Below are positions 25,758-52,331 of a DNA stretch of 64,000 nt, piece after piece. The stretch comes from a phage, in the NCBI GenBank assembly GCA_018509705.1, contig GCA_018509705.1_3630.1. The stretch is one strand, 5' to 3'. Position 1 is the stretch's first letter. Every line of letters starts with the position of its first letter. The position numbers and the translations under genes are program-made. The notes below the pieces were generated by a model that saw only the letters and a program-made list of their open reading frames with translations, was not told where the DNA came from and did not search any database.

Positions 25758-25874
25758 ATGTCTAAAGGTATTTCTAAAATTTGCAAGTGTGGTTGTCGTT
25801 GCAATCTTCGTTGGTGCAAGGCACTAGATGATTTTATTTGGCATTGCCCTAAATGTGATACGGAGTATCTATGA
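25758..25874 (+). CDS. Small Cys-rich zinc-ribbon-like peptide (38 aa)
   Basis: Hand-translated MSKGISKICKCGCRCNLRWCKALDDFIWHCPKCDTEYL; strong RBS AAGGAGG; stop overlaps nrdG start. Confidence 0.5.
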   Translation: MSKGISKICKCGCRCNLRWCKALDDFIWHCPKCDTEYL

Positions 25875-26408: not shown

Positions 26409-26522
26409 ATGGCTAAAAAAGCCTTGAAGAAGGCGTACAAGAAAGAGATTGCGCTTGAGCTTAAGAAAAAACACAAGCGTGAAAAGAAACATCATGAGGA
26501 TGAAGAGGGGGTGCAACAGTGA
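26409..26522 (+). CDS. Small highly basic peptide (37 aa)
   Basis: Hand-translated MAKKALKKAYKKEIALELKKKHKREKKHHEDEEGVQQ; GAGGAGG RBS. Confidence 0.35.
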   Translation: MAKKALKKAYKKEIALELKKKHKREKKHHEDEEGVQQ

Positions 26523-31595: not shown

Positions 31596-31832
31596 ATGAG
31601 TATAAATGTTGTGCTAATAGGTTACCTGGTAATGTCCGTTATAACAGCGGTATTCTTGACAGGTGTATGCATCGTGTCCAGACGAAGGGTGAAGTTTGAT
31701 GATTTTATCACCATCATCACTGCTGCACCTTTTTGGCCTGTTGTTATCTTCATCGTGATAATGTGCCTGGTTGATTACTACAAGAATATCCGTAAGGAGA
31801 AAAAGGAGGGTAGGGATGGAGACCGCACCTAA
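31596..31832 (+). CDS. Small membrane protein (two hydrophobic segments)
   Basis: Two hydrophobic stretches of about 20 aa each. Confidence 0.45.
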   Translation: MSINVVLIGYLVMSVITAVFLTGVCIVSRRRVKFDDFITIITAAPFWPVVIFIVIMCLVDYYKNIRKEKKEGRDGDRT

Positions 31833-31968
31833 AACTGTTTATACTGTTCTTAAAGAGATTGCGTTCTACGCAGATCTTAGCCAGGCACCTTTATGGGAAA
31901 AGAGCATGTATTTAAAATGGTGCGTTAATTTAGGGAGGCCTTCCAGTGTTTCAAGCCATGTTTATTGA
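31816..31968 (+). CDS. Hypothetical small protein
   Basis: ATG with AAAGGAGGG RBS inside track ORF 31771. Confidence 0.35.
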   Translation: METAPKTVYTVLKEIAFYADLSQAPLWEKSMYLKWCVNLGRPSSVSSHVY

Positions 31969-32051
31969 GATGCTATCTGGGGTATTGTTACTGGTAGCCA
32001 TCTTAGGTGGTGCAGTTCTGATGTATAACTATCTTGAAAAAGGAGACAGCA

Positions 32052-32237
32052 ATGGTAAAAAATAAATCTTTAGAGCAGGCTGAAAACCTTCTCCACGAGC
32101 TGGTAAAGGAGTGGAAAGTTGAATACTCAGATTTTAATGCACGAGAGGGTGAAGATTATTGGCCTACTGAGCGCTCCGAGGGTGAATGGTATCAAGATTT
32201 TATAGAGTGGTTATATCAGACGTGCGATGAGGGGTGA
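32052..32237 (+). CDS. Hypothetical protein
   Basis: ATG with AAAGGAGA RBS. Confidence 0.4.
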   Translation: MVKNKSLEQAENLLHELVKEWKVEYSDFNAREGEDYWPTERSEGEWYQDFIEWLYQTCDEG

Positions 32238-33795: not shown

Positions 33796-33885
33796 ATGAT
33801 TGCATCAATATTAACGTTTATGGGTGGCGTGGCATTCGGATTCATTGTTTGCCTGTTTATAGTGATTATGTCTATGCGAGGCTGA
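33796..33885 (+). CDS. Small hydrophobic peptide (29 aa)
   Basis: Hand-translated MIASILTFMGGVAFGFIVCLFIVIMSMRG; single TM helix. Confidence 0.35.
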   Translation: MIASILTFMGGVAFGFIVCLFIVIMSMRG

Positions 33886-36056: not shown

Positions 36057-36193
36057 GGTGCTACAATGGGTGTGATCAAGAAATTAGTCCCAAATGTAGA
36101 GATTGCATGCTTTGAAATTATGTTTGCAATCGCAGTTGTAGTTAATGTGTTAGGTTACGGCTATTAATATCAAATAATTGAGGAGACCTCTAA

Positions 36194-38567: not shown

Positions 38568-38854
38568 TGAAAGATCTGGTTAAGATTAAGATTAAAGATA
38601 CCAATGGAGAACTCAGCCATTTTGGAATTAATGATGGTGACGAGCTGATCGCACACCTGCCTACCAAGGAGGTTGTAAGCAAAGCAGTTGCCGGAGAAGA
38701 AGCTGCAATGCAGGCTGCAGGTGTGGATGAAAACTATGTAGCTATGTGCATGTGCCGAGATCAGGTTGTTCTGTATAAAGCGTATCGACCAAACGGAGCC
38801 ACGGAGTGGCTTGTATTCCGACCCGAAGGATATGAAATCTTAGAGGCACTATGA
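38567..38854 (+). CDS. Small paralog family A member
   Basis: KIKIKD near start, YEILEAL end. Confidence 0.45.
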   Translation: MKDLVKIKIKDTNGELSHFGINDGDELIAHLPTKEVVSKAVAGEEAAMQAAGVDENYVAMCMCRDQVVLYKAYRPNGATEWLVFRPEGYEILEAL

Positions 38855-38943
38855 TAAATCTTGCCAAGGTTGCAACGGCACTGTTAATTATTTGCTGGTC
38901 AGTAACCTTAACACTGTGTCTTGTATTTCAGTGAGGTGCTTGT

Positions 38944-39207: not shown

Positions 39208-39362
39208 CAGTATAGTGACTAACAAGAGGTGAGGGGTGACTGATTTTACTGAAGCTTTAATGACGGCCTTGTCTGTTTTAGCGCTATCGGTGTGTTTTGG
39301 GGCGTTATTCACATCTCTGGTTAAAGTTTTACATACAGTATTATTACCCAAGGAGCGCAGTA

Positions 39363-39614
39363 ATGACGAAGATTGACTTGAATGCTGGTGATCATGTTGT
39401 TGTCAAATGCGTTGGAGATTATCTTGGATTCACAATCGGCAATACTTACGAGGCGGTAGTGGCGAAGGTTTATCATGATAAAGTCCTCAGTCTTGTATTT
39501 GACTGTGATGATGACGGAGATGACCGTTACGTCTGTGAGGTGCTGGCTCGTGACGATAGTGAAGACCAGAAATTCCTGGTTATTGAACTGAACGGTATTT
39601 TTGTAGAACGTTAA
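39363..39614 (+). CDS. Hypothetical protein
   Basis: ATG with AAGGAG RBS inside track ORF 39297. Confidence 0.4.
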   Translation: MTKIDLNAGDHVVVKCVGDYLGFTIGNTYEAVVAKVYHDKVLSLVFDCDDDGDDRYVCEVLARDDSEDQKFLVIELNGIFVER

Positions 39615-40880: not shown

Positions 40881-40912
40881 CCACACATAGTTTGTAGAAT
40901 ATGGAGTACACA

Positions 40913-41002
40913 ATGAGAACATTGTCCGAAGTTTTAGTGGTGATCCTGATGATTATTACGTCCATAGCGGCTGTTGCCGGAATACTCACGGGTGGAACAT
41001 GA
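40913..41002 (+). CDS. Small hydrophobic peptide (29 aa)
   Basis: Hand-translated MRTLSEVLVVILMIITSIAAVAGILTGGT; GGAG RBS; ATGA overlap with next ORF. Confidence 0.4.
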   Translation: MRTLSEVLVVILMIITSIAAVAGILTGGT

Positions 41003-41211
41003 TCAACACACATGCATCTGAAGAGACATCCGAAGGAGTGACCATATGTCCCTTGGCTGATCCAGTGAAAGAGGAAAACTTCGATTCTGAAGATTCTCCA
41101 TCTTCGCTCCAGGTAGATCCTGAGGCTGATGATCTAACGTGGGAAGACATCGTAGACATCTGGTTCTCTATTATGCCTGAGCACGAAGAGTTCAGGGGTG
41201 GTAGACTATGA
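40999..41211 (+). CDS. Small highly acidic protein
   Basis: 70 aa rich in D/E. Confidence 0.4.
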   Translation: MINTHASEETSEGVTICPLADPVKEENFDSEDSPSSLQVDPEADDLTWEDIVDIWFSIMPEHEEFRGGRL

Positions 41212-41332: not shown

Positions 41333-41548
41333 ATGAAGATAGAAATATTTGGTGGAGCTGACAACACTCGTGGCCTGATTTACCTTGAGTTCGATGAATC
41401 ATACCTGCCAGAGGTGTTAAATATGGACTCTGTTGCTGATGCTTTGGGAGTAAGTCCTAAAGATCTCTACTCTGGTGCTGAGATTGATGGTTGGGAGGAG
41501 ACCATGAACATTGATTTCAGTGAAGTAGGTGATGAACCACTGGACTGA
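41333..41548 (+). CDS. Small acidic protein (family A-like start MKIEIF)
   Basis: 71 aa; AGAGGAGA RBS. Confidence 0.45.
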   Translation: MKIEIFGGADNTRGLIYLEFDESYLPEVLNMDSVADALGVSPKDLYSGAEIDGWEETMNIDFSEVGDEPLD

Positions 41549-43034
41549 CACACAATTAGCTACCCGGCTAAAGTGCTGGGAGCACCTATAACACATCTTT
41601 CAACTAAATTTCCCACCACCACAATCACTTACCTCCCACACATGACTGTTTGCTTGTTTAGTGAGCAGTCATGCCTTGACATTCTTGCCTATCCTGATAA
41701 AATTAAGTTCTTCTCTTTTCTTTTACCGAGTAATTCGGGTTTTCTGTTCTCTTCGGTTTGAAGGGGGTATGGAGATACACCTGAGTGAACAGGGTGAACA
41801 ACCGAACCATTGGCTATGGCATTAGCATGGCGAAGCGGACGGGTGACGAAAGAGGGGCCGGAGGACACCAGTCACTGCCATATGATATATGGGTGATAAC
41901 CTGAAGAATCTGAATAAGTGTTTAAGTACCAGTCAGAGGAAAAGGTGAATGGTAGCTGAAGGGGAGGGGGGTTTCTTGTATCTTTAATTTGTATATTATG
42001 TATACACTTGTAAACCAATTTCATCTGAATCTGTTTACCACACAAAGTGGATAGAGACAAATATTACCTATTAAACTTGAATTATTTATAGAAAATACCA
42101 CAACACCACTTAAGTCTTTGATTTTACACACAAATCCTGCAGATATTCAACCTCCATATTTAACATACTTGTAACATATTCCATACTCTACCTGCCTGAT
42201 CAATTTCCCCAACTACATCCCCCATATTTTCCCTGTCTGTACTACCCCTGCCCCGCCGGGAGTCCCGTCATATCTGGCTTTCCAGCAAATATCACACCCA
42301 CAAATATCATTGCCTGAAGAGGGTTTCATCCCATAATACCTGCCTTGCCTGAAGAGGGTTTCATACGCCACGTAAATTTTTTAATTGACCCCTCCCCGCC
42401 GCCGGAAAGGTTGGCTTTTCTCGCACAGACCTGAAGAGTCAGCCAGAAATATCTGAATAGGCCCAATTCTACCCCGATTTTGACCTGACCTACAGGAGCG
42501 CTGCCCTGTCAGGAGCCGTAGCGACTGGAGTGCTGCCAGGCGGACGAAATGGGAATACTTCTCATTCTTATAACAATTCTCAAATATCGAGGCAGTGAGG
42601 CAAATTAATAGGCCAGGCCGTTCACACAGTGGCACAACATTTGCAACCTATCCTGTGGGGATGAATGAGAATACCTATCATTGTGAGAACCATTATCATT
42701 ACGGGCAATTTAACATAATACCCATTATGCGCACCACTGGCGATACATACAGGGATTGATAACATGGGTTACTGTTTACGCACATAACAATTATATTTCT
42801 TACCATTTGTGTGGGATATAGTTAGCAGCCGATAGATTAGATATTAACCTGCAGACTTCTGACCGTCCAGACGTCTAAACGCCCACACACCAAGGATTAT
42901 ACATACACTCCTGAATGTAAACAGGGCCGCAAAAATGCTACCATACAAGCTTGTAAATTTTTCATGCAGCACTTGACAAAGAGGAGAAAAACTTGTCTGA
43001 CATAATGTGACCTAACTGACACAACATGACACTT

Positions 43035-43121
43035 TTACACACCTATTAGTTTACACACTGGATTGTTTACATTCCTGATTGTTCACATGCTAACCATTTA
43101 CATGATTGACTGTTTACACAC
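43035..43121. repeat. Six phased iteron-like repeats of TTTACA/TGTTTACA at about 16-bp spacing
   Basis: Copies begin near 43035, 43050, 43066, 43082, 43099, 43112. Confidence 0.6.
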
Positions 43122-43130
43122 CGATAATCA

Positions 43131-43394
43131 GCCATGCCATTCGTTTGCATGACAATAATTATACATGACAATAATCGCACTGATTATAATTAGCATGACA
43201 TAATATAAAAGCAGGGCAACTATTAGCAGATCTATAGTTGCCTTGCTTGTCATGTCATGATTAACTAAATACAAGGCAACTATGATCTGATTAATAGTTT
43301 GCAGACAAACTATCACGGGGGTGATGGTTACTGCTTTTATATTATGTCGCGACTCCGTCGCGCCATGCCATTCGTTTGCATAGTTGCCTTATTG
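43131..43394. repeat. Composite dyad region: 20-bp direct repeat GCCATGCCATTCGTTTGCAT (43131-43150, 43362-43381) framing an 18-bp inverted repeat and multiple GCAACTAT sites
   Basis: Inverted arms GACATAATATAAAAGCAG (43197-43214) and CTGCTTTTATATTATGTC (43331-43348); GCAACTAT in both orientations. Confidence 0.7.
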
Positions 43395-43991
43395 TTACAG
43401 ATAAAATAATTGTATTGTTAATTATTTCTTATCTTTCTATTAGTCATCTAATGATTTCAGTTAATATAGTAACGTACAGTAAACATTAGACGACTAAAGA
43501 TTTCTCTGCTTATGGTAACCTAACGTGACAATTCCAGACTGTTTACGAAAAATGTTGACACCTGGGCCGATTTATGTTATGCAGTTTACACGAATAATTA
43601 TTTTATGCAGGTATTGACTATTCCGTTATTCTATGGTTGGAATAAATGCTTAGCAGGCTATAGAATGGCGAGCGTACGTAAATTCTGAGATCTGGCGGCT
43701 ATAGTTATACTCGATTTTTCACGTAGAAAACGCTTTTGTAGTTATGTAAGTGTATGACTTATAAAGATTTTTAGTTGTTGACAAGCTATTGAAGATATGC
43801 ATCAGGTTAAATTTTGTGCAAATGCTGCATTATGTGCAATTTTGGAAGGAAAAACGTGTAAAAATGGCCCTGCTACCACACAATGAAAAATTATGCAATA
43901 GTTATTTTATATGTATGTTTGTACAGTGGGGTTAATTGCTGGCTTGTTGATTATTCCATTTGCCAGGCGGGGCCATTTGTGGTAGGAAAAG

Positions 43992-44022
43992 AGGAGACAA
44001 AAAGAAAGGGGCTTTAAGCCCC
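43992..44022 (-). terminator. Rho-independent terminator for the leftward gene block
   Basis: GGGGCTTTAAGCCCC hairpin followed on the - strand by TTTCTTTTT. Confidence 0.55.
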
Positions 44023-45055: not shown

Positions 45056-45190
45056 TTAAAACAAGGTGCCAACCGTTCCCAATAGATCACTGACTACCAG
45101 GACAATACTGATCAGCACATACCTAACCATAAGGGGAAAGAGCGCCAGCGATCCAGCCACAATCCCCAAGGTGATGATTATCTTTCTCAT
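45056..45190 (-). CDS. Small hydrophobic peptide (44 aa)
   Basis: Hand-translated MRKIIITLGIVAGSLALFPLMVRYVLISIVLVVSDLLGTVGTLF; start 2 nt after upstream stop. Confidence 0.35.
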   Translation of the reverse strand: MRKIIITLGIVAGSLALFPLMVRYVLISIVLVVSDLLGTVGTLF

Positions 45191-45192
45191 GG

Positions 45193-45477
45193 TTAACGGT
45201 TTACGTAAGCTTTACCGTTTACGGTGATGGGCAGATCTTCCAGGTCTGGATCTTCCTTAAGGTCGCGAGCAAGCTCACCGCACCGGATACCCTCGAATCC
45301 GTAGTACTCTGTTGTGCCGTCATTAAAAGTTTTAGCGGCAAGGCATAAGCGATAAGTAACCCAGATTTGATTGACGGCATGGATATCCGTTAGATTAACC
45401 TCTTTTGCCAGCTCTTTAGCCATTACAGGCGCATTAAGTCCAACAACCAGGGCAACTACTGCGATCATCTTTTTCAT
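45193..45477 (-). CDS. Secreted/periplasmic protein with signal peptide
   Basis: N-terminal MKKMIAVVALVVGLNAPVMA; AAAGAGG RBS. Confidence 0.5.
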   Translation of the reverse strand: MKKMIAVVALVVGLNAPVMAKELAKEVNLTDIHAVNQIWVTYRLCLAAKTFNDGTTEYYGFEGIRCGELARDLKEDPDLEDLPITVNGKAYVNR

Positions 45478-45568
45478 TGTGTCTAGCCTCTTTCTGCTAC
45501 GTTTAAGGCGGCGGTAACCGCCTGTTTATGATTTATTGGTTAATTTTCAGGTATCGCTATAAATTAAA

Positions 45569-45793
45569 CTATGCTGTACGCTCAACTATAACAACGGTTT
45601 GAGGGATCTCACCTTCCACCACTATCAAGGCCTTTTTCTGCGTGATGGATATCTTTACCCGTTGCAGCGTGGCGGTGAAGTCTTTCATTTCGTCACGTGG
45701 TGTTTTAGTGCAATGCCAGATCTCAGGCTTACCTATTTGCAAGCCGCGTAAAAATTCTGTTTTACCTGTCTTATTCGTGATCATTTGATTCAC
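45569..45793 (-). CDS. Hypothetical protein
   Basis: 74-aa ORF. Confidence 0.4.
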   Translation of the reverse strand: MNQMITNKTGKTEFLRGLQIGKPEIWHCTKTPRDEMKDFTATLQRVKISITQKKALIVVEGEIPQTVVIVERTA

Positions 45794-45794
45794 C

Positions 45795-45899
45795 TTAACC
45801 GATACCGTGGGAAGATAGGATCATGTTAGCCATAGTTGCAACCACTCCAACCGATAATGCCAGGCCAACTACTACAACCGTGAAAATTTTCTCTAACAT
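45795..45899 (-). CDS. Small hydrophobic peptide (34 aa)
   Basis: Internal Met of track ORF with GAGGG RBS; single TM helix. Confidence 0.35.
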   Translation of the reverse strand: MLEKIFTVVVVGLALSVGVVATMANMILSSHGIG

Positions 45900-45982
45900 G
45901 ATTCTACCCTCATTAATGGGCGTTGCCTTATTGCCCCGCCCTACGAAATACAGTCTATCAAGTAATAAACTATTGTCAAGAT

Positions 45983-46120
45983 TTATTTTACTTCCCAAAC
46001 GGAAAATTCACTACCTGGCGGAATCATCTTTTTAATCTTGTTTGCTGCTGCTACCAGATCCACGGCTTGTACTGTAATAATATAACCAATTGTCGAGGCT
46101 GTTGCGTTGAAAGTTTTCAT
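45983..46120 (-). CDS. Small protein (45 aa)
   Basis: Hand-translated MKTFNATASTIGYIITVQAVDLVAAANKIKKMIPPGSEFSVWEVK; GAGGG RBS. Confidence 0.35.
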   Translation of the reverse strand: MKTFNATASTIGYIITVQAVDLVAAANKIKKMIPPGSEFSVWEVK

Positions 46121-46457
46121 TAAATTACCCTCATTAATGGCGGGAAGTATTCCCGCGCTATGTAGTACACTTTACCAGATTGTTGACTGTTGTCAAACTA
46201 TTTTAACGATAATCATCATATGCTTTATTGACCTGGCGAATATAACATTCAAAAGCTAGATCAATAGATTTATATTCACGGATATATTCACCATAGGAAA
46301 CCACATACATTTCTATAGCTTCCTCATATGCGAGGAGAATAGAATCTAAGCCTACGATCTCAGTCTTTGCAATAATAGCCATGATTTTTATCCTCTTTGT
46401 GGTTGGTGGGGCTTGTTGCCCCCTTTGATTTATATTCTACAGTCTTATAAGGTCATG

Positions 46458-46691
46458 TCAACTATTTTCAAAAAATTTTTCTGCTGTAATATTTTTCCCG
46501 GTAGGGTTCGCTACTTTCAAAATTTTATCATGCACTGGACGCCCAAAAGAATAAGCGCCGTACACAGTGCACCAATAATCGCCGTCAGGCTGTACTATTA
46601 CAGCCGCATAGGGTACGCCTTTTTCGTTTTTGCTGACAAAATAGATCACGTTGCCATTAATAGCCTCGGCGCGTTTAATTTGTTCCATCAT
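46458..46691 (-). CDS. Hypothetical protein
   Basis: 77-aa ORF with AGAGAGG RBS preceded by GC hairpin. Confidence 0.45.
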   Translation of the reverse strand: MMEQIKRAEAINGNVIYFVSKNEKGVPYAAVIVQPDGDYWCTVYGAYSFGRPVHDKILKVANPTGKNITAEKFFENS

Positions 46692-46747
46692 GATGATTTG
46701 CCTCTCTTTATTTTCATAATTGGGGGGCCTTTTCGGCCCCGCCAGGT

Positions 46748-47032
46748 TTATTTATTGATAGCGTGCAGCGGGAAAGGTACGCCAGGTTGATAGATAACTT
46801 TTACAACCTCATCAGAGCAAAAGAAATTACAAAATTCACCCTGATAAGCCTCATCCTCTTTTAATTCTTCATCAACATACTGGAAAAAGTAGTCAATGCT
46901 TGGATAATCCTGACCGGGATTATATTCAACCATGGTTAATAACAATTCTTGATCATTCCGTATGATATGCATACCAGCTTTTAAGTATTTGGCTTCCATT
47001 TCTACTACATCGCCAACGGTAACAATAGCCAT
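46748..47032 (-). CDS. Hypothetical protein
   Basis: 94-aa ORF. Confidence 0.45.
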   Translation of the reverse strand: MAIVTVGDVVEMEAKYLKAGMHIIRNDQELLLTMVEYNPGQDYPSIDYFFQYVDEELKEDEAYQGEFCNFFCSDEVVKVIYQPGVPFPLHAINK

Positions 47033-47169
47033 GGTTTTAACTCCTATCTATCCGGTTAATGATTGGAGGCCTCACCGCCCCCCGACACCCTTTATTATCC
47101 ATATTGTAGGACTTGATGCAAGTACTTCTTTAAAAATTTTTTAAGCGCCTTGGGGGCCGCTGTAACGCC

Positions 47170-47200
47170 AAAATAATAAAGGCTATGCAACCGCATAGCC
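47170..47200 (-). terminator. Rho-independent terminator (- strand)
   Basis: GGCTATGCAACCGCATAGCC hairpin followed on - strand by T-rich tract. Confidence 0.5.
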
Positions 47201-47238
47201 TTTATGTGATTATATCGCTGCAGGCCCTGCCAGGGGCC

Positions 47239-47589
47239 TTATTTTGCATTCTTTCCTATATTGCCGCTACGGTACCAGCGTTTACGGTGAAAATGGTAAT
47301 AATCACCATCGGCATTAAACATCAGATGATTTTCAATAACCAGCTTACGAAGGTGGGCCGGATCTTGTTCCATTCTTGCCAGATTCTGGCGGCTGTTACG
47401 TAAGCGGATAAATTCTATATTCAGGCCGTTGATTGCAGCATGGATGTCAAAGTAACCACCTTTGAGACGTTCACGCATGGCGTTAAGCTCAACACAATAT
47501 ACAGATTTCTCACAAATCAAGGTATTAGCCAGGGCGCGGACCTGGGCAAGAGGGTTAAGCTCATTAAGGTAATATAGTTTTACTTTCAT
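47239..47589 (-). CDS. Hypothetical protein
   Basis: 116-aa ORF. Confidence 0.45.
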   Translation of the reverse strand: MKVKLYYLNELNPLAQVRALANTLICEKSVYCVELNAMRERLKGGYFDIHAAINGLNIEFIRLRNSRQNLARMEQDPAHLRKLVIENHLMFNADGDYYHFHRKRWYRSGNIGKNAK

Positions 47590-47606
47590 AAAATCACCTG
47601 CTGAAA

Positions 47607-47927
47607 TTAGTTTGAGAAAACATCGTTCACAATAGCGATCACAATGCCGCCCACCTTGTCACGGTCAACAATGCACAAATCACCATAGATCATGTGGTAG
47701 TCTGGATGATCTTTGACGGAATAGTCGATAAGTGTTTTCTTGTCATCCAGCTTACTAACTTCCATTCTCATAACGATATGAGAATCATCAAAGGCATTAT
47801 TCCGAAAAGTCATAACCTGACCGCCAGGGCACCCGGTGATTTCCACCTCCACGCCGTCTACGATCTGACCATCAAAGAAATAAAGATTATTAGCCTGGAT
47901 AAACATGATCATTACTCCTTTTTGCAC
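47607..47927 (-). CDS. Hypothetical protein
   Basis: 106-aa ORF. Confidence 0.45.
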   Translation of the reverse strand: MQKGVMIMFIQANNLYFFDGQIVDGVEVEITGCPGGQVMTFRNNAFDDSHIVMRMEVSKLDDKKTLIDYSVKDHPDYHMIYGDLCIVDRDKVGGIVIAIVNDVFSN

Positions 47928-47950
47928 TGATTATTTTAACAGGGTTTAAA

Positions 47951-47994
47951 TTTACTTTATTGATGGCCCTGGAGTCAAGGCCATCTAAAAATAA
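47951..47994 (-). promoter_or_regulatory. 44-bp conserved element, copy 1 (palindrome GATGGCC-N10-GGCCATC containing a - strand TTGACT)
   Basis: Near-identical to copies at 51667 and 52288; sits just upstream of a - strand gene. Confidence 0.55.
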
Positions 47995-47997
47995 ATT

Positions 47998-48198
47998 TTA
48001 CAGGCCTACAATCTCTTTAATTCGTTTTACTGCTGCCTCAGCGCCTTGAGGGTAAAAATTATGGTAACCAATCACGCGAGTGATACTAATCGCCGTTTGA
48101 TGATCTTCATAATCACCTTTAAAGATTTCTTGACCGTCAATCAGCACGGCAATTTTTTCTTCTTTTTTGAAGTTAATAACGCGGATATTGTTGCTCAT
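47998..48198 (-). CDS. Hypothetical protein
   Basis: 66-aa ORF with AAGGAGA RBS. Confidence 0.4.
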   Translation of the reverse strand: MSNNIRVINFKKEEKIAVLIDGQEIFKGDYEDHQTAISITRVIGYHNFYPQGAEAAVKRIKEIVGL

Positions 48199-48339
48199 TT
48201 TGTTTCTCCTTTTGGAACTTTGTCTATGCGGTGGGGAGTGTCTCCCCGTTGATTGTTATTATCCATATTCTGGATCGGATTGCAACACTCAGGGAGAAAA
48301 AAATTTGAAAAGTTAGGCCCCCATGATCGGGGGCCGTTC

Positions 48340-48459
48340 TTAGTTACTTACAGCGATAAAGTACATCCCTACGCCTAGCAATATTTCAAGGGCGATAATC
48401 TCAAGCCATACCATAACGCGGCGCACCTTATCGGTGCATGGCTTATCCTTGGTTGTCAT
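48340..48459 (-). CDS. Small hydrophobic peptide (39 aa)
   Basis: Hand-translated MTTKDKPCTDKVRRVMVWLEIIALEILLGVGMYFIAVSN; GGGGAG RBS. Confidence 0.35.
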   Translation of the reverse strand: MTTKDKPCTDKVRRVMVWLEIIALEILLGVGMYFIAVSN

Positions 48460-48625
48460 CGTCTCCCCCTTTCCTTCTGGTAGTAGTGACGCGATCTACA
48501 ATGGCCCCCAGGAGTCCTATCACGACACACACCACAAGAAAAATTATCTCCGCTGTTGTTCGATCCATTGTTATAAAATTCCTCAAGATCAGGCCTGAAA
48601 ATAAAGCGTTCGTTATTGAATCCAT
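48443..48625 (-). CDS. Small membrane protein
   Basis: 60-aa ORF with TM segment IIFLVVCVVIGLLGAIV. Confidence 0.35.
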   Translation of the reverse strand: MDSITNALFSGLILRNFITMDRTTAEIIFLVVCVVIGLLGAIVDRVTTTRRKGGDDDNQG

Positions 48626-48678
48626 CCCGCCAGGCGGCTGGCTTCAAATCTTCACTAAAGGGGTTAATTAACGTGGCA

Positions 48679-49083
48679 TTATTTAAACGGCTGGTCCACA
48701 TATTTTCTATTCCTCTCAAATAGGCGATCCGCCTCAGTTAAACAAATCTCATGGGCGTGATCTCTGGTTTTAGCTTCATCGAAAACCTGTTGTGCAAGGC
48801 TGCAACGTAGGGAGACTGGAAGATCACTATAATAGGCGTTGACAAACGTTTGAGCGTCGTACAGGTCTGAAAATACTTTACCCTTTCTATTATTCCCCTT
48901 GTCAACAATTGCAAGGATAACCAATACAATAGTTGCAACCACCCCCAGGAAAATAGATATAATAAACCATAAAAAGGCGGATCTTCCCATCTTGCCAGCG
49001 ATCCAGGCGTTAAACAAGGCAACCAATACAGCCAAAATAATAAATTCCATTCTATGTACCTCTTTTACAGTTCTGATTAACAA
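48679..49083 (-). CDS. Membrane protein (two TM helices); start uncertain
   Basis: Hydrophobic segments FIILAVLVALFNAWIA and FLWFIISIFLGVVATIVLVILAIV. Confidence 0.45.
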   Translation of the reverse strand: MLIRTVKEVHRMEFIILAVLVALFNAWIAGKMGRSAFLWFIISIFLGVVATIVLVILAIVDKGNNRKGKVFSDLYDAQTFVNAYYSDLPVSLRCSLAQQVFDEAKTRDHAHEICLTEADRLFERNRKYVDQPFK

Positions 49084-49114
49084 TAAGGCGGCAAATATGC
49101 CGCCTGCTACCTGA

Positions 49115-49495
49115 TTAAAAATTATCGCCGTAAATCTTTCCGCTTTCTACCCATACCACCACGCGAGGCATACTATCCCACACGTCTTGTTTTAGATTGA
49201 GCGCGTGCAATTCTTCGGTGGTGCTCATACCGGGCACGGGCTGATTGTATACTGCAAAACGACCGCCTGCATAATCATAGGCCAGGGTTAAATCACACTG
49301 GATCATCTTTTTGATCATGGCATTAAGCATGGCGTTAGCCGCATATTGATCACGTTTTAAAGGCAACTCTTTGATTAGTTTGCGATAGTTTTCGATATGG
49401 TCGCACACTGTTTCACGAGGAAGATCTTTCATATCTTCACGGAATGTAACCAGGTTAAACATAACGGTGTCAATAGCCTTGGTAGTGTTTTTCAT
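49115..49495 (-). CDS. Hypothetical protein
   Basis: 126-aa ORF with AAGAGGA RBS. Confidence 0.45.
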   Translation of the reverse strand: MKNTTKAIDTVMFNLVTFREDMKDLPRETVCDHIENYRKLIKELPLKRDQYAANAMLNAMIKKMIQCDLTLAYDYAGGRFAVYNQPVPGMSTTEELHALNLKQDVWDSMPRVVVWVESGKIYGDNF

Positions 49496-49585
49496 GATGT
49501 TATCCTCTTTGTTTTGTGTTGGGGCAAACGTCTTGCCACCTTGAGTTTTAATATAGCAGGTTTTTAGGTTATTGCAACACTTTAT

Positions 49586-49963
49586 TTATGAAAAAGTCAT
49601 CTCACCATATTCATCGACATCAAACCGCCAATCATTGGCCTCGATAAGGCCGATCAGGTTTTCTGCGGTGAACTGTTCTAGATAGGCCTCCTCCAGGTCT
49701 ACGTAAACCTTGCGGGATAGCTCCCGTACCGTCTCGGTGATCAGTTCTTCCAGGTCTTCCACTTTGTTTTCTTGTTTGGCGGTCAGATCTAGCCAAGTGG
49801 TATCAATGTACCCGCTTACAGTGTTTTCATGGCTGTAATGGCTGTACTTGTCGCGTTCAACACTGGCTGATAACTCGCCATCGTGCATTGTGCCGAACAA
49901 GTGACGAATTGATCGGAACTTGGTCAGGGCCTTTACTTTACGCAAAAATTTTTCTAAATCCAC
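49586..49963 (-). CDS. Hypothetical protein
   Basis: 125-aa acidic ORF. Confidence 0.45.
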   Translation of the reverse strand: MDLEKFLRKVKALTKFRSIRHLFGTMHDGELSASVERDKYSHYSHENTVSGYIDTTWLDLTAKQENKVEDLEELITETVRELSRKVYVDLEEAYLEQFTAENLIGLIEANDWRFDVDEYGEMTFS

Positions 49964-50020
49964 GTTTTCAGCACTGATTGACGCGCCGTCACCCTGGCAC
50001 CAAAAGCCTGACCAATGTAC

Positions 50021-50209
50021 TTAGGTATCTTCAAGGCCATACTCTGGAAAAACATATTCTTTATAGTATTCAATTACACTTTCTGCAAAAAAGTTATCCC
50101 CGCTGTGTTCTTCTCTTTCGCGGACCATTTCAACGGCTTTTTCTTTTTGTTCGTCGGTCAGCACGTCGAAAGATAAATTGTAACCTGCGGTAATGTTAAC
50201 GGTGGTCAT
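50021..50209 (-). CDS. Hypothetical protein
   Basis: 62-aa ORF downstream of promoter and leader hairpin. Confidence 0.45.
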   Translation of the reverse strand: MTTVNITAGYNLSFDVLTDEQKEKAVEMVREREEHSGDNFFAESVIEYYKEYVFPEYGLEDT

Positions 50210-50266
50210 GATATTTTCTCCTATTTTCTTTGTTAGTGGCGGGAAGTTTTCCCGCCTGTGTGTTTA

Positions 50267-50294
50267 AGTATACTTATTGAGGCTTACTTGTCAA
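50267..50294 (-). promoter_or_regulatory. Sigma70-type promoter on - strand (TTGACA-16-TATACT)
   Basis: Read directly on reverse complement. Confidence 0.55.
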
Positions 50295-50544
50295 CACTAT
50301 TTTTTAAATTATTGTGGCGCAAAATGTTTAAAATCTCCTCAACGTCATCAACACGGCGGCAATTTTTAAACGCTACCAATTGCCCCATGATTTTAATCAC
50401 TGGGCGGCCTTGCCAGTGCCCCTGAAGAAAGCGCGCCCTGACTTTATCGGTGGAACTATCACGCCACCAAATAGCCTTGTTGTTGCAGTAGTAAAAATTA
50501 TTCAGGATAACATCAACTTTATCAAAATTTTTTAATTTACGCAT
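50284..50544 (-). CDS. Hypothetical protein
   Basis: 86-aa ORF. Confidence 0.4.
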   Translation of the reverse strand: MRKLKNFDKVDVILNNFYYCNNKAIWWRDSSTDKVRARFLQGHWQGRPVIKIMGQLVAFKNCRRVDDVEEILNILRHNNLKNSVDK

Positions 50545-50762
50545 GGCGTTTACTCCTTTCTCTCTTTGATGTGGTTAGTATAGCTAACCTGTTGACGATG
50601 TCAATGATATTTTTAACGCCATGAAACGGCCCTGGGCGATGTTTTCAGGTTAAAGGGGGCGATTGCATAGGTGGGGGCCTTTTTGGCGCTTACAGGGCCA
50701 ACCAGGGGCGCTATTCGTAGGATAGAAATAAAAAGCCCCGCACAATGGCGGGGCGTTGGTTG

Positions 50763-50984
50763 TTATTTGTCTTTATGGCGGTATCGTTCTGCCTGTCGTT
50801 CACGTTCCAAAAGTAGGCCGGGCAATTTACGATCATAATGATTACGCCAGATCTTCCCAAACCTTTTTGGCTTATTCAGTTTATTGTTACGCTGGCGGCG
50901 TTCTGGCAGCTCTTCGGAATCATGAGGGCGCTTTACAATTTTCTCGAAATTAATTTTCATATATTCCCCCCTTGCTAACTTCAA
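50763..50984 (-). CDS. Small highly basic protein
   Basis: 73 aa rich in R/K. Confidence 0.4.
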   Translation of the reverse strand: MKLARGEYMKINFEKIVKRPHDSEELPERRQRNNKLNKPKRFGKIWRNHYDRKLPGLLLERERQAERYRHKDK

Positions 50985-51303
50985 TATTGGCCTGAATAGC
51001 CCGGATACGGCGCTTTATAACTTCCTGATCTGTGTGGTCGTATCCCCAAAAGTCTACAATTTTTGCGCCCCCCGCCTCCAGGCGGTATAGTGTTTCCTGC
51101 ATTTTGTAAGCCGGGATCGGTCGCGGTGTTACTTGGTCACCTTCTTTATTTTTATACTTTATAATATAATCTTCGTTATCGTTGAATGCCCAAAATGGAT
51201 ATTCTGCAAGGGCGGTACTTCCTCTTTCCTTTTTATCCTGGATCTTATTTACAATTAAAGCCGTAGCAATAGCGCCAATAATAAAACTTGCCCCGCTGAT
51301 CAT
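50950..51303 (-). CDS. Hypothetical protein with N-terminal TM segment
   Basis: 117-aa ORF; hydrophobic N-terminus. Confidence 0.45.
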   Translation of the reverse strand: MISGASFIIGAIATALIVNKIQDKKERGSTALAEYPFWAFNDNEDYIIKYKNKEGDQVTPRPIPAYKMQETLYRLEAGGAKIVDFWGYDHTDQEVIKRRIRAIQANIEVSKGGIYEN

Positions 51304-51377
51304 GTACTTTCTCCTTTCATGGTGTTAATAAATTATCTTTATAGATGGCCCTGCAACCAGGACCACCGAAAAAATAA

Positions 51378-51623
51378 CTATTTCACAATGCCTACAAAAC
51401 AGATCCCGCCTTCACCTATATAAGCAATATCGGTCACTTTATAACTTGTCAAGATCTGCTTATTTAGTTCATTAATAAAATCGGTCATTGCGTTGGTGTA
51501 GTTGTCTTCCGTGTCTAAGGCATAATCCCAGGTGTACACCTTTTTACGTCCGAAGCCTTTTACCATGATACGGGCGCTTTTGGTGTTGGTAGGGGCATAA
51601 TATTTGGTGATTAGTGCTGCCAT
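51378..51623 (-). CDS. Hypothetical protein
   Basis: 81-aa ORF downstream of element copy 2. Confidence 0.45.
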   Translation of the reverse strand: MAALITKYYAPTNTKSARIMVKGFGRKKVYTWDYALDTEDNYTNAMTDFINELNKQILTSYKVTDIAYIGEGGICFVGIVK

Positions 51624-51666
51624 GGTTTTAACTCCTATGCATTAGTTCAGTGTTAACAGTATAAAG

Positions 51667-51710
51667 TTTACTTTATTGATGGCCCTGGTGTCAAGGCCAT
51701 CTAAAAATAA
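51667..51710 (-). promoter_or_regulatory. 44-bp conserved element, copy 2
   Basis: TTTACTTTATTGATGGCCCTGGTGTCAAGGCCATCTAAAAATAA. Confidence 0.55.
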
Positions 51711-51712
51711 GC

Positions 51713-52054
51713 TTACTCGTTTTCTTCCAGCTCCGCAAGCTCTTCTTTTGCTTCTTCTAACTCTGTCTGTAATTCCTGGTATTCTTCATCGTCCTCAATA
51801 TCCAGGCTGTCGATGTAGTCGCTAAATCCGCAGCGGTAAGCGATAGGATCTAGCTCCTTGAGGATACGCGACGGAAGAAAAGAAATGTTTCCGATCATAA
51901 TTTCGCCGTAGATCTCGTCTAACCATTCATCATAGTTTTCGTCGTACTTGTCCTCGTCGATTTCAAAGTTATCGATCTTATTCTCAAGGTCTGCGATCTG
52001 TTTTTTCAGTTCAGCGATCTGCATAGCTTTTTCTGAGGCGGTCATAGTAGTCAT
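51713..52054 (-). CDS. Highly acidic coiled-coil protein
   Basis: 113 aa, D/E-rich with heptad-like spacing. Confidence 0.45.
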   Translation of the reverse strand: MTTMTASEKAMQIAELKKQIADLENKIDNFEIDEDKYDENYDEWLDEIYGEIMIGNISFLPSRILKELDPIAYRCGFSDYIDSLDIEDDEEYQELQTELEEAKEELAELEENE

Positions 52055-52105
52055 GGTGTTTTTCTCCTTTTGTGTGTTCTGGGAAGTTTTCCCGTTTATG
52101 TGCTT

Positions 52106-52133
52106 ATTATATCGATTTAAGTTAGCTTGTCAA
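52106..52133 (-). promoter_or_regulatory. Sigma70-type promoter on - strand (TTGACA-16-TATAAT)
   Basis: Read directly on reverse complement. Confidence 0.55.
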
Positions 52134-52253
52134 TTAAAAGTTTAAGAAAAATTTTGCGACACCGTTGGCGCTACCCATCAACATTTGCGCCAGGATGTAC
52201 CCAATGATGCAAACGATGATGGTTACCTTTGTGTGCTGGCGTGTAGTGCTCAT
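52134..52253 (-). CDS. Small hydrophobic peptide (39 aa)
   Basis: Hand-translated MSTTRQHTKVTIIVCIIGYILAQMLMGSANGVAKFFLNF; AAAGGAGG RBS. Confidence 0.4.
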   Translation of the reverse strand: MSTTRQHTKVTIIVCIIGYILAQMLMGSANGVAKFFLNF

Positions 52254-52287
52254 CTTTAAGCCTCCTTTTCCGCTCAACTGTGGTTAG

Positions 52288-52331
52288 TTTACTTTATTGA
52301 TGGCCCTGGTGTCAAGGCCATCTAAAAATAA
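52288..52331 (-). promoter_or_regulatory. 44-bp conserved element, copy 3
   Basis: Identical core to copy 2. Confidence 0.55.

What the first reader, a model, noticed from the sequence alone, without database searches (positions are those of the whole stretch)
45056..52253. Multiple very small hydrophobic peptides with their own ribosome-binding sites
Hand translation shows complete short ORFs encoding single-helix hydrophobic peptides below the 60-aa track cutoff, each with a Shine-Dalgarno-like sequence: 45056..45190, 45795..45899, 48340..48459, 52134..52253 on the - strand (and 33796..33885, 40913..41002 on the + strand). Their number and consistent layout suggest a set of membrane-acting peptides, for example modulators of host transporters or receptors, or lysis-timing factors.
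Basis: seen in the sequence. Interest (0 to 1): 0.4.

Follow-up and report, generated by a model that had tools for sequence, protein, structure and literature searches.

The report
Small membrane peptides of rV5-like phage
The six tiny hydrophobic ORFs are almost certainly real, conserved genes for single-helix membrane peptides in the early region of an rV5-like coliphage, but their equivalents were listed as one-helix "membrane proteins" for phage rV5 in 2013 and their function is still unknown.

Summary
The window is an rV5-like coliphage (Vequintavirus, 98.8% identical to phage EdH4). All six ORFs exist at the stated coordinates. Each has a hydrophobic core typical of a transmembrane helix.

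They are more than chance. Gaps on the coding strand hold 10 hydrophobic small ORFs, against 0.33 in shuffles. Every orthologue examined is intact. pN/pS is 0.13-0.45 for five of them; p33796 has too few differences to judge.

Four have a clear Shine-Dalgarno sequence. p45056 has none and p33796 only a weak one; both start 2 nt after the upstream stop codon, which suggests translational coupling.

None of this is new. The 2013 rV5 paper lists gp170, gp173, gp181 and gp193, the orthologues of the four minus-strand peptides, as "membrane protein, 1 TMD". Five of the six match PHROG families of unknown function.

They sit in short units with sigma-70-type promoters, far from the lysin and from the putative holin. 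That argues against a role in lysis timing. Two travel as mosaic two-gene cassettes shared with Stephanstirmvirinae phages.

Most likely they are inner-membrane micro-proteins made early in infection that act on envelope proteins; this mechanism is inferred, not shown.

One side finding: a hidden transmembrane ORF at 48443..48568 overlaps the annotated neighbouring gene.

The parts
45056..45190 (-). p45056: 44-aa hydrophobic peptide (MRKIIITLGIVAGSLALFPLMVRYVLISIVLVVSDLLGTVGTLF). Orthologue of rV5 gp170; phrog_16005.
   Evidence: ORF and hydropathy. Intact in 10 orthologues at 50-100% identity. Pooled pN/pS 0.45, while off-frames carry stops. Found in 159 phage records, including Phapecoctavirus and Justusliebigvirus. 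Listed as rV5 gp170 'membrane protein, 1 TMD'. No SD; the ATG lies 2 nt after the upstream stop.
45193..45477 (-). 94-aa protein with an N-terminal signal-peptide-like segment (MKKMIAVVALVVGLNAPVMA) and two Cys. Conserved upstream partner of p45056; phrog_9845.
   Evidence: Always directly upstream of the p45056 orthologue in Vequintavirus, phAPEC8 and ZCKP1. The cassette 45056-45547 is shared with Stephanstirmvirinae at 81-83% nt identity. pN/pS 0.23. Narrow family of 42 clusters.
45795..45899 (-). p45795: 34-aa peptide (MLEKIFTVVVVGLALSVGVVATMANMILSSHGIG). Allele A of the rV5 gp173 family; phrog_14631. The C-terminal motif ATM(A/S)N..(I/L)SS.(G/L)(I/T)G is conserved.
   Evidence: Pooled pN/pS 0.15, variable sites by codon position [3,1,11]. 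Two alleles 53% identical, plus a 50% identical copy in IMG/VR locus L007, all intact. 151 phage records. 14 protein clusters, none with a functional name.
45952..45979 (-). Sigma-70-like promoter (TTGACA, 16 nt, TAGACT, with TG extension) about 50 nt upstream of the p45795 start.
   Evidence: It lies inside the mechanical 67-aa TTG ORF 45795..45998, which is therefore an over-extension.
45569..45784 (-). 71-aa soluble protein (phrog_5988) immediately downstream of p45795; its cassette partner.
   Evidence: The cassette 45571-45979 (this gene, p45795 and the promoter) is shared with Phapecoctavirus and Justusliebigvirus at 87-89% nt identity while the flanks are not. pN/pS 0.11.
48340..48459 (-). 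p48340: 39-aa peptide (MTTKDKPCTDKVRRVMVWLEIIALEILLGVGMYFIAVSN). Orthologue of rV5 gp181; phrog_13629. Basic N-terminal tail; the helix carries two Glu residues.
   Evidence: Residues 15-39 are invariant, apart from one conservative M16I change in L005, while the N-tail varies and takes a 1-codon insertion. Pooled pN/pS 0.13. Variable sites by codon position [4,6,15]. 119 Vequintavirus records. Strong SD GGGGGAG. Overlaps the upstream annotated gene by 4 nt.
48316..48335 (-). Intrinsic terminator (GGCCCCCGATCATGGGGGCC followed by a T-rich tail) 5 nt after the p48340 stop.
   Evidence: Annotated as a terminator in EdH4.
48443..48568 (-). Hidden alternative-frame ORF: 41 aa from an internal Met (MDRTTAEIIFLVVCVVIGLLGAIVDRVTTTRRKGGDDDNQG) with a transmembrane helix. 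It overlaps the 3' half of the annotated gp182-like gene.
   Evidence: Intact in all 8 relatives; one (L003) has a late indel. Over 48482-48568, pN/pS is 0.37 in this frame, 1.18 in the annotated frame and 1.65 in the third frame. Found in 118 phage records. No PHROG family.
48456..48701 (-). Annotated gp182-like gene (81 aa here; phrog_12060). Only its 5' half behaves as coding in this frame.
   Evidence: N-half pN/pS 0.28. The tail has in-frame stops in MaxBurger, pangalan and FV3, giving 73 aa.
48679..49050 (-). 123-aa membrane protein (rV5 gp183, '1-2 TMD'; called 'putative holin' in the BASEL phage records). First gene of the overlapping operon that ends with p48340.
   Evidence: phrog_13090, unknown function. 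No Pfam holin family.
52134..52253 (-). p52134: 39-aa peptide (MSTTRQHTKVTIIVCIIGYILAQMLMGSANGVAKFFLNF). Orthologue of rV5 gp193; phrog_16391. Conserved C-terminal tail SAN..AKFFL.F.
   Evidence: Pooled pN/pS 0.24, codon-position variability [13,9,22]. 113 Vequintavirus records, some annotated 'putative membrane protein'. Perfect AGGAGG SD.
52286..52315 (-). Sigma-70-like promoter (TTGACA, 18 nt, TAAACT) upstream of p52134.
52106..52133 (-). Perfect consensus sigma-70 promoter (TTGACA, 16 nt, TATAAT) starting at the base after the p52134 stop codon. It serves the next gene downstream.
   Evidence: Corresponds to promoter P192 annotated in rV5.
33796..33885 (+). p33796: 29-aa peptide (MIASILTFMGGVAFGFIVCLFIVIMSMRG), almost entirely a transmembrane helix. 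Tightly packed between two genes: upstream stop, 2 nt, ATG; the next gene starts 3 nt after its stop.
   Evidence: Found in 91 Vequintavirus records, 72 of them identical; mostly unannotated, but called 'hypothetical protein' in some BASEL phages. Only 3 nt differences were available, so pN/pS (0.62) is uninformative. No PHROG family. This is the weakest of the six.
40913..41002 (+). p40913: 29-aa peptide (MRTLSEVLVVILMIITSIAAVAGILTGGT), or 33 aa from the ATG at 40901. phrog_34195; equals MaxBurger bas54_0138.
   Evidence: Pooled pN/pS 0.13, variability by codon position [0,2,8]. In rV5 it is hidden under a GTG-extended ORF162 in another frame.
36066..36167 (+). Orthologue of rV5 gp145; phrog_15151.
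   Evidence: pN/pS 0.22. SD GAGGT.
38851..38934 (+). Additional 27-aa hydrophobic ORF (MINLAKVATALLIICWSVTLTLCLVFQ). Unannotated in the relatives examined.
   Evidence: pN/pS 0.33 from few differences. SD GAGG. No PHROG family.
31946..32065 (+). Orthologue of rV5 gp131 (39 aa, 1 TMD), two genes downstream of the putative holin orthologue (31596..31829).
39236..39376 (+). Orthologue of rV5 gp156 (46 aa, 1 TMD).
   Evidence: pN/pS 0.67 from few differences.

Best explanation
The ORFs are genuine, independently evolved genes for single-pass inner-membrane micro-proteins of 27-46 aa. They lie in the gene-dense accessory/early region of an rV5-like coliphage.

Shown here: they are conserved, they are under purifying selection in their own frame, they are placed like genes, and they sit in short units with near-consensus sigma-70 promoters and intrinsic terminators.

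Inferred: host RNA polymerase transcribes them soon after infection. The peptides insert into the inner membrane, with the basic end cytoplasmic for p48340, p52134 and p45056. They then act through helix-helix contacts or their short conserved tails on host envelope proteins or on their own phage partner proteins. The likely outcome is host takeover, superinfection exclusion or evasion of membrane-linked defence, rather than the main lysis pathway. Two of them probably work with the gene they always travel with: p45056 with the 94-aa secreted protein, and p45795 with the 71-aa protein.
For: Identity of the window: 98.8% to Vequintavirus EdH4.

Coding status: the ORFs are real and hydrophobic. 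There are 10 against 0.33 expected by chance. All orthologues are intact with the same length and stop position, down to 50% identity. Pooled pN/pS is 0.13-0.45 for five of the six, with third-position-biased variation. Off-frames carry stops in every orthologue and give pN/pS 0.7-5, while neighbouring accepted genes give 0.11-0.23.

Prior annotation: five of the six are full-length PHROG families. TMHMM and Phobius called one TMD for the rV5 orthologues gp170, gp173, gp181 and gp193.

Expression context: sigma-70-like promoters are in excess (37 against 20.9 +/- 4.5), nearly all on the minus strand and 12 with a perfect TTGACA. p45795 and p52134 have their own promoters, and a terminator follows p48340 directly (annotated likewise in rV5 and EdH4).

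Where constraint lies: the p48340 helix is essentially invariant (one conservative M16I change in L005) while its cytoplasmic tail varies. The C-terminal tails of p45795 and p52134 are conserved.

Partner genes: the two-gene cassettes are shared across phage subfamilies while the flanks are not.

Lysis genes lie elsewhere.
Against: There is no direct evidence of translation, membrane insertion or timing for any of them. I found no transcriptome or ribosome-profiling study of this phage group. The rV5 paper notes that sigma-70-type promoters are spread across the whole genome, so they do not by themselves prove early timing.

p33796 has almost no sequence variation to test. p45056 shows only moderate constraint (0.45).

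No homologue has a known function in Pfam, NCBIfam, PADLOC or PHROGs. The fold of the 94-aa partner gave no lead. The proposed target class is therefore pure analogy.
Confidence: 0.6

Rival explanations
1. Lysis-timing factors. The peptides would be holin, antiholin, pinholin or spanin-like components that set or modulate when the membrane is permeabilised. In particular, p48340 and the hidden transmembrane ORF could act with the 123-aa membrane protein that BASEL annotators call 'putative holin'.
For: They are small membrane proteins, as holins and antiholins are. p48340 ends an overlapping operon that begins with the 123-aa, 1-2 TMD protein labelled 'putative holin' in MaxBurger. The rV5 holin assignment (gp129) is itself only a prediction.
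Against: None of the six is near the lysin (rV5 gp89) or near the holin predicted in the rV5 paper (gp129; window 31596..31829). The 123-aa protein matches no holin family in Pfam or PHROGs. The peptides lack the charged C-terminal tail typical of holins. p45056 has no lipobox Cys and its LPAM_1 hit is below threshold. The units have sigma-70 consensus promoters, not the T4-late-like motif reported upstream of rV5 late genes.
Confidence: 0.1
2. Toxic, membrane-depolarising peptides, working like type I toxins such as Hok, TisB or Ldr. The phage would use them to shut down host energy metabolism or transport early in infection.
For: Their size (29-44 aa) and single hydrophobic helix resemble type I toxins. 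p48340 carries two Glu residues inside its helix, which suggests oligomerisation or an ion path.
Against: No similarity to any toxin family. No antisense promoter is evident at these loci; almost all promoter-like sites are on the coding strand. The cassettes are absent from 5,426 E. coli genomes, where type I systems live. A phage with a full replication programme gains little from collapsing the proton motive force early.
Confidence: 0.1
3. Superinfection-exclusion modules. The cassette [94-aa periplasmic protein + p45056], and perhaps others, would block DNA entry or the tail lysozyme of incoming phages, as T4 Imm and Sp do. This is a specific sub-case of the best explanation.
For: A secreted small protein and a membrane peptide are translationally coupled, and they are kept together as a mosaic cassette across two phage subfamilies. 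The layout is that of an accessory gene.
Against: No sequence or fold similarity to Imm, Sp, Cor, Llp or Sie proteins. The structure model is weak and has no PDB match. The idea rests on analogy only.
Confidence: 0.15
4. Chance ORFs or annotation artefacts. Hydrophobic-looking reading frames would arise by composition in intergenic spacers and would not be translated.
For: Short ORFs are abundant: 115 ORFs of at least 25 aa in 9.5 kb. Two hydrophobic gap ORFs in the ORF-free stretch (42622..42765 and 42844..42972) look non-coding, with pN/pS 0.59 and 1.15. p33796 cannot be tested for selection.
Against: The excess over shuffles is 30-fold and strand-specific. The coding strand here is A-rich rather than T-rich (AT skew), so composition works against hydrophobic frames. 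All orthologues are intact and selection is frame-specific. SD sequences, promoters and terminators are positioned appropriately.
Confidence: 0.04

Closest known systems
rV5 gp170, gp173, gp181 and gp193 (also gp131, gp145, gp156), listed as 'membrane protein, 1 TMD' in Kropinski et al. 2013, Virol J 10:76, Table S3; and PHROG families 16005, 14631, 13629, 16391, 34195 and 15151
   Same: Direct orthologues: p48340 is 100% identical to gp181, p52134 92%, p45056 73%, and p45795 53% (the other allele). They have the same genomic position, length and predicted single TMD.
   Different: Nothing of substance. p33796, 38851..38934 and the hidden ORF 48443..48568 are not in the rV5 table. p40913 is masked there by an over-extended ORF162.
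Bacterial small bitopic membrane proteins under 50 aa (for example AcrZ, MgtS, MgrB, KdpF and CydX in E. coli; from my own knowledge of the small-protein literature)
   Same: Size, a single transmembrane helix with very short tails, constraint concentrated in the helix or a short tail, and a presumed mode of action by binding a larger membrane protein.
   Different: No sequence relationship; the best Pfam hit (YbgT_YccB, E = 0.45) is far below threshold. These are phage-encoded, absent from E. coli genomes, and no partner is known.
T4 superinfection-exclusion proteins Imm and Sp (from my own knowledge)
   Same: Early-expressed, non-essential small envelope proteins of a large lytic coliphage: one membrane-embedded, one facing the periplasm. 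The [94-aa secreted protein + p45056] cassette has that composition.
   Different: No detectable homology. Imm (83 aa) and Sp (97 aa) are larger and are not co-transcribed as a coupled pair. No functional evidence here.
Holins and antiholins (for example lambda S105/S107, T4 T and RI)
   Same: Small phage membrane proteins. p48340 shares an operon with a protein that some annotators call a putative holin.
   Different: Not next to the lysin, no charged C-terminal domain, shorter than any established holin, sigma-70 early-type promoters, and no holin family match.
Type I toxin peptides (Hok, TisB, Ldr, Ibs, ShoB)
   Same: A hydrophobic single-helix peptide of 19-50 aa.
   Different: No family match, no antisense RNA signature, no chromosomal or plasmid copies.

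Membership tests
Orthologues of rV5 1-TMD membrane proteins / PHROG small-protein families | Full-length match to the family profile | tested here: met
   E = 1e-25 (phrog_16005), 2e-22 (14631), 2e-32 (13629), 2e-31 (16391) and 3e-21 (34195), each covering the whole profile. p33796 has no family; its best hit has E = 0.004 and is partial.
Orthologues of rV5 1-TMD membrane proteins / PHROG small-protein families | Same position between the same neighbouring genes as in rV5 | tested here: met
   Gene order matches EdH4, MaxBurger, pangalan, rV5, JES2013 and FV3. tblastn of the rV5 proteins maps them onto the window ORFs.
Small bitopic inner-membrane proteins (functional class) | Under 50 aa with one hydrophobic segment long enough to span the membrane | tested here: met
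   KD19 maxima 2.08-2.95. TMHMM and Phobius call one TMD for the rV5 orthologues.
Small bitopic inner-membrane proteins (functional class) | Protein-level purifying selection in the stated frame | tested here: met
   pN/pS 0.13-0.45 for five of the six; off-frames give 0.7-5 and carry stops. Inconclusive for p33796.
Small bitopic inner-membrane proteins (functional class) | Actually translated and located in the membrane | not testable with these tools
   No Ribo-seq or proteomic data for infected cells were found. The rV5 proteomics covered virions only.
Holin / antiholin | Gene adjacent to, or co-transcribed with, the endolysin or other lysis genes | tested here: not met
   The lysin is rV5 gp89 at 71.6 kb and the putative holin gp129 at 94.1 kb. 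The peptides correspond to rV5 positions 96-115 kb and none abuts either gene.
Holin / antiholin | Hydrophilic, highly charged C-terminal tail after the last TMD | tested here: not met
   The C-terminal flanks carry 0-1 charged residues in all six.
Holin / antiholin | Match to a holin family profile | tested here: not met
   No Pfam, PHROG or NCBIfam holin hit for the peptides or for the 123-aa neighbour.
Spanin (o-spanin lipoprotein) | Lipobox with an invariant Cys after a signal sequence | tested here: not met
   p45056 has no Cys. Its LPAM_1 hit scores 14.2 bits against a cut-off of 20.
Type I toxin-antitoxin toxin | Convergent or overlapping antisense RNA gene with its own promoter | tested here: inconclusive
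   The consensus scan finds almost all promoter-like sites on the coding strand and none antisense at the four loci. A consensus scan cannot exclude weak promoters.
Type I toxin-antitoxin toxin | Presence in bacterial chromosomes or plasmids; family profile match | tested here: not met
   No match in 5,426 E. coli genomes. No Pfam, NCBIfam or PADLOC hit.

The most novel reading that the evidence does not exclude
The rV5-like early region would encode a battery of at least ten unrelated single-helix peptides. Each would be tuned to dock onto a different host inner-membrane protein, or to anchor a phage partner protein. These peptides would be traded between phage subfamilies as promoter-plus-two-gene cassettes. 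One of them (48443..48568) would be hidden in the alternative frame of an annotated gene and expressed either from an internal start or by a +1 shift at the GAGGAA-TTTT site. If so, these phages would be a natural library of transmembrane-helix inhibitors of E. coli envelope functions.
Probability: 0.2. Interest if true: 0.55.

Novelty: already known. Interest (0 to 1): 0.22.

Why it matters
It matters only modestly. Small membrane proteins are an under-studied class, and a large lytic coliphage that keeps ten or so of them under selection is a convenient place to ask what phage micro-proteins do in the host envelope. Candidate roles are superinfection exclusion, defence evasion and control of transporters. 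The genes themselves are already in databases and in the 2013 rV5 paper.

This analysis adds four things:
- Quantitative evidence that the ORFs are real coding genes.
- The observation that two of them travel as two-gene mosaic cassettes.
- A probable mis-annotation: a transmembrane ORF hidden in the 3' half of the gp182 gene.
- A correction of the rV5 ORF162 start.

None of this identifies a function.

Tried and rejected
- **Family searches.** I scanned the peptides and their neighbours against Pfam, NCBIfam, PADLOC and PHROGs. Only PHROG families of unknown function matched. The weak LPAM_1, YbgT, MP_p6, Mplas_variab_LP and PycTM hits are all below threshold and I treat them as noise.
- **Fold of the 94-aa partner.** Only one of five AlphaFold2 models was confident (mean pLDDT 74.7). 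Foldseek against the PDB gave no match with E <= 0.001, and the best TM-score was about 0.3 (HIV RT fragments). No inference was drawn.
- **Large-database homologue searches.** The 94-aa partner and p45795 both returned narrow, phage-restricted families with no functional names.
- **Literature.** Searches for transcriptomic, ribosome-profiling or functional data on Vequintavirinae early genes found nothing specific.
- **Prophage-moron idea.** The cassettes have no match in E. coli genomes.
- **ORF-free stretch.** The hydrophobic ORFs at 42622..42765 and 42844..42972 were rejected as genes (pN/pS 0.59 and 1.15). Rfam found nothing in that stretch.
- **Paralogy.** I rejected the idea that the peptides are paralogues of one family; cross-hits have E > 0.5.
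- **tblastn coverage as a stop test.** I tried using tblastn coverage to show stops in the annotated frame of gp182 across all phages. It is not diagnostic, because tblastn aligns through stops; only the identity distributions are informative.

Full report
**What the window is.** The 7.6 kb around the finding is 98.8% identical to Escherichia phage EdH4, and 93-99% identical to more than a hundred other Vequintavirus (rV5-like) coliphages. GC skew shows a plus-strand coding block up to about 42 kb and a minus-strand block from about 44 kb onward. This matches the rV5 paper's description of two convergent transcription units, genes 82-163 and genes 10-1-238-164, which meet at a stretch without ORFs. 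That paper already remarks that the region holds "88 mainly small ORFs".

**Checking the observation.** All six ORFs are present, complete and at exactly the stated coordinates. Each has a 19-residue Kyte-Doolittle maximum of 2.08-2.95.

A clear Shine-Dalgarno sequence precedes 45795 (GAGGG), 48340 (GGGGGAG), 52134 (AGGAGG) and 40913 (GGAG). 33796 has only a GAGG 10 nt upstream. 45056 has none. In both of these the ATG lies 2 nt after the stop codon of the upstream gene, which suggests translational coupling. The start of 45056 is GTG in the closest relatives.

The layout is therefore heterogeneous rather than consistent, and the peptides are not similar to one another.

**Are they more than chance?** I built a map of long ORFs on the coding strand and counted ORFs of at least 25 aa with a strongly hydrophobic 17-residue window in the remaining gaps. 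There are 10 on the coding strand. Five hundred shuffles gave 0.33 +/- 0.58 (maximum 3), and the antisense strand of the same gaps has 3. The coding strand here is A-rich rather than T-rich, so base composition works against hydrophobic frames.

**Conservation and selection.** I fetched the homologous region from 15 relatives:
- Vequintaviruses: EdH4, MaxBurger, pangalan, rV5, JES2013 and FV3.
- Stephanstirmvirinae: PaulScherrer, EmilieFrey, phAPEC8 and ZCKP1.
- Five IMG/VR contigs.

Every orthologue found is intact, with the same length and the same stop position. That includes copies only 50% identical: p45056 in L005, p45795 in L007 and in rV5.

| Peptide | Pooled pN/pS |
|---|---|
| p48340 | 0.13 |
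| p40913 | 0.13 |
| p45795 | 0.15 |
| p52134 | 0.24 |
| p45056 | 0.45 |

Variation is concentrated at third codon positions. In the two other frames of the same stretches, every orthologue carries stops and pN/pS is 0.7-5. Accepted neighbouring genes give 0.11-0.23. p33796 differs at only three nucleotides in my set and is identical in 72 of 91 phage records, so selection cannot be assessed. Its case rests on the tight gene-like packing, and on the fact that some careful annotators call it.

Distribution across phage records:
- p45056: 159 records.
- p45795: 151 records.
- p48340: 119 records.
- p52134: 113 records.
- p33796: 91 records.

The first two extend into Phapecoctavirus and Justusliebigvirus.

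**Already known.** Five of the six match full-length PHROG families of unknown function. All four minus-strand ORFs are annotated as hypothetical proteins in one or more close relatives.

Table S3 of the rV5 genome paper (Kropinski et al. 2013, PMC3606486) is decisive. It lists gp170 (44 aa), gp173 (46 aa), gp181 (39 aa) and gp193 (39 aa) as "membrane protein, 1 TMD". Those are the orthologues of p45056, p45795, p48340 and p52134. It lists gp131, gp145 and gp156 in the same way.

The window also contains orthologues of gp131 (31946..32065), gp145 (36066..36167) and gp156 (39236..39376), plus an unannotated 27-aa hydrophobic ORF at 38851..38934.

**Context of each peptide.**
- **p45056** always follows a 94-aa protein with a signal-peptide-like N-terminus and two cysteines. 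This pair is kept together in Vequintavirus, phAPEC8 and ZCKP1. It forms an island of 81-83% nucleotide identity between the two subfamilies.
- **p45795** has its own promoter (TTGACA, 16 nt, TAGACT, TG-extended, at 45979..45952) and a good SD, and is followed by a 71-aa gene. Promoter, peptide and 71-aa gene together form another shared island of 87-89% identity. The family has two alleles, 53% identical, that keep the C-terminal motif ATM(A/S)N..(I/L)SS.(G/L)(I/T)G.
- **p48340** is the last gene of an overlapping operon: a 123-aa membrane protein, then the gp182-like gene, then p48340. An intrinsic terminator follows 5 nt after its stop. Its helix, which contains Glu20 and Glu25, is invariant apart from one conservative M16I change in L005. 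Its basic N-terminal tail varies and accepts a one-codon insertion.
- **p52134** sits between a promoter at 52315..52286 and a perfect consensus promoter that begins at the base after its stop codon (rV5 promoter P192). Its C-terminal tail SAN..AKFFL.F is conserved.
- **p33796** is wedged between two genes with spacers of 2 and 3 nt.
- **p40913** precedes the gp162-like gene by a 4-nt overlap.

Across 44-53.5 kb, promoter-like sites are in excess (37 against 20.9 +/- 4.5), and almost all are on the minus strand. Terminator-like sites are also in excess (24 against 9.5 +/- 3.5).

**What they most likely do.** The shown facts are that these are real coding genes, that each has a membrane-spanning hydrophobic segment, that they sit in sigma-70-type units, that constraint is concentrated in the helix or a short tail, and that two have constant partner genes.

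From this I infer that they are inner-membrane micro-proteins made by the host transcription machinery early in infection. They would act through helix-helix or short-tail contacts with host envelope proteins or with their phage partners. I favour host-interaction roles such as superinfection exclusion, blocking of membrane-linked defence, or adjustment of transport.

I disfavour lysis timing. The rV5 lysin (gp89) and predicted holin (gp129; window 31596..31829) are elsewhere. The peptides lack a charged C-terminal tail. No holin family is matched by them or by the 123-aa protein that BASEL annotators call "putative holin".

A type I toxin-like role is possible but unsupported. There is no family match, no antisense promoter and no copy in E. 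coli genomes.

The sigma-70 promoters do not prove early timing, because the rV5 authors found such promoters across the whole genome. No transcriptomic or ribosome-profiling data exist for this phage group in the searched literature.

**Attempts to obtain a functional handle.** The 94-aa partner family is confined to these phages: 42 clusters, all at least 71% identical. Its AlphaFold2 model was confident in only one of five runs and had no significant PDB neighbour. The p45795 family comprises 14 near-identical clusters with no functional name. None of this yields a function.

**Side finding.** In the gene just upstream of p48340, two frames stay open across relatives. The annotated frame behaves as coding only in its 5' half, where pN/pS is 0.28. 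Over 48482-48568, pN/pS is 1.18 in the annotated frame but 0.37 in the +1 frame. The +1 frame encodes a transmembrane helix (MDRTTAEIIFLVVCVVIGLLGAIVDRVTTTRRKGGDDDNQG from the ATG at 48568).

The tail of the annotated frame acquires stop codons in MaxBurger, pangalan and FV3, and its substitutions are radical. The alternative-frame substitutions are conservative. The alternative peptide is found in 118 phage records. The annotated-frame tail is found in 94, at lower identity.

So there is probably one more small transmembrane peptide here, unannotated in every genome I examined. It could be made from the internal ATG, whose only SD-like sequence (GAGG) lies a poor 12 nt upstream. It could also be made by a +1 shift on the TTTT run that follows GAGGAA. 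I could not distinguish these two routes.

**Verdict.** The finding is not new, because the genes are annotated as 1-TMD membrane proteins in the type phage and catalogued in PHROGs. Function remains unknown. Interest is low to moderate.

Noticed in passing
window 48443..48701 (-): The 3' half of the annotated gp182-like gene appears to be coding in the +1 frame instead. That frame holds a 41-aa transmembrane ORF (48443..48568) under purifying selection (pN/pS 0.37, against 1.18 in the annotated frame). The tail of the annotated frame has stops in three relatives. This is either a separate overlapping gene or a +1 frameshift product at GAGGAA-TTTT.
   Followed up: partly
Three are orthologues of rV5 gp145, gp131 and gp156. 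The 27-aa ORF at 38851..38934 is unannotated in the relatives examined but is intact in all of them and has a GAGG SD.
   Followed up: partly
window ~41400..44000: An ORF-free stretch of about 2.6 kb where the two convergent transcription units meet; the rV5 paper reports 'no observable ORFs 104013-106618'. The hydrophobic ORFs at 42622..42765 and 42844..42972 are conserved but show pN/pS of 0.59 and 1.15, so they are probably not genes. No Rfam family matches. The function of this conserved non-coding block is unexplained.
   Followed up: partly
window 45571..45979 and 45056..45547, versus L011, L012, L015, L016: The early region is mosaic. Only a few short cassettes are shared with Stephanstirmvirinae (Phapecoctavirus, Justusliebigvirus), at 81-95% nt identity, while the flanking DNA is unrelated. 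p45795 exists as two alleles 53% identical, and their distribution cuts across genera: rV5 and JES2013 carry one; the window, FV3 and the Stephanstirmvirinae carry the other.
   Followed up: partly
window 40906..41211 (+); L010 10373..10678: rV5 ORF162 is annotated from a GTG that is GTA in this window. That extension overlaps p40913 in another frame and is probably a mis-annotation. The real start is most likely the ATG at 40999.
   Followed up: partly
window 45795..45998 (-): The mechanical 67-aa ORF from a TTG start runs straight across the sigma-70-like promoter at 45979..45952. The 34-aa reading from the ATG at 45899 is the real gene, as relatives annotate it. rV5 annotates a 46-aa version of its own allele.
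   Followed up: yes
window 25758..25874 and 26409..26522 (+): Two small non-hydrophobic ORFs flank the NrdG-like gene. One is a Cys-rich 38-aa peptide (CxC...CxxC, zinc-ribbon-like). The other is a Lys-rich 37-aa peptide. Both are annotated in MaxBurger (bas54_0177 and bas54_0175).
   Followed up: no
window 31596..32065 (+): The orthologue of the putative rV5 holin gp129 (78 aa, 2 TMD) is followed by overlapping small genes gp130 and gp131 (1 TMD). If any small transmembrane peptide in this window is lysis-related, gp131 is a better candidate than the six in the finding.
   Followed up: no
phage collection hits: About 20 records named 'Campylobacter phage' (MG0656xx; host given as C. jejuni; most unannotated) are 99% identical to this coliphage region. 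Their naming or host assignment looks doubtful. The same applies to a 'Pseudomonas phage PsgM04F' and an 'Acinetobacter phage' carrying the Stephanstirmvirinae cassettes.
   Followed up: no
window 52106..52133 (-): A perfect consensus promoter (TTGACA, 16 nt, TATAAT) starts at the base immediately after the p52134 stop codon, so the peptide gene is squeezed exactly between two promoters.
   Followed up: partly
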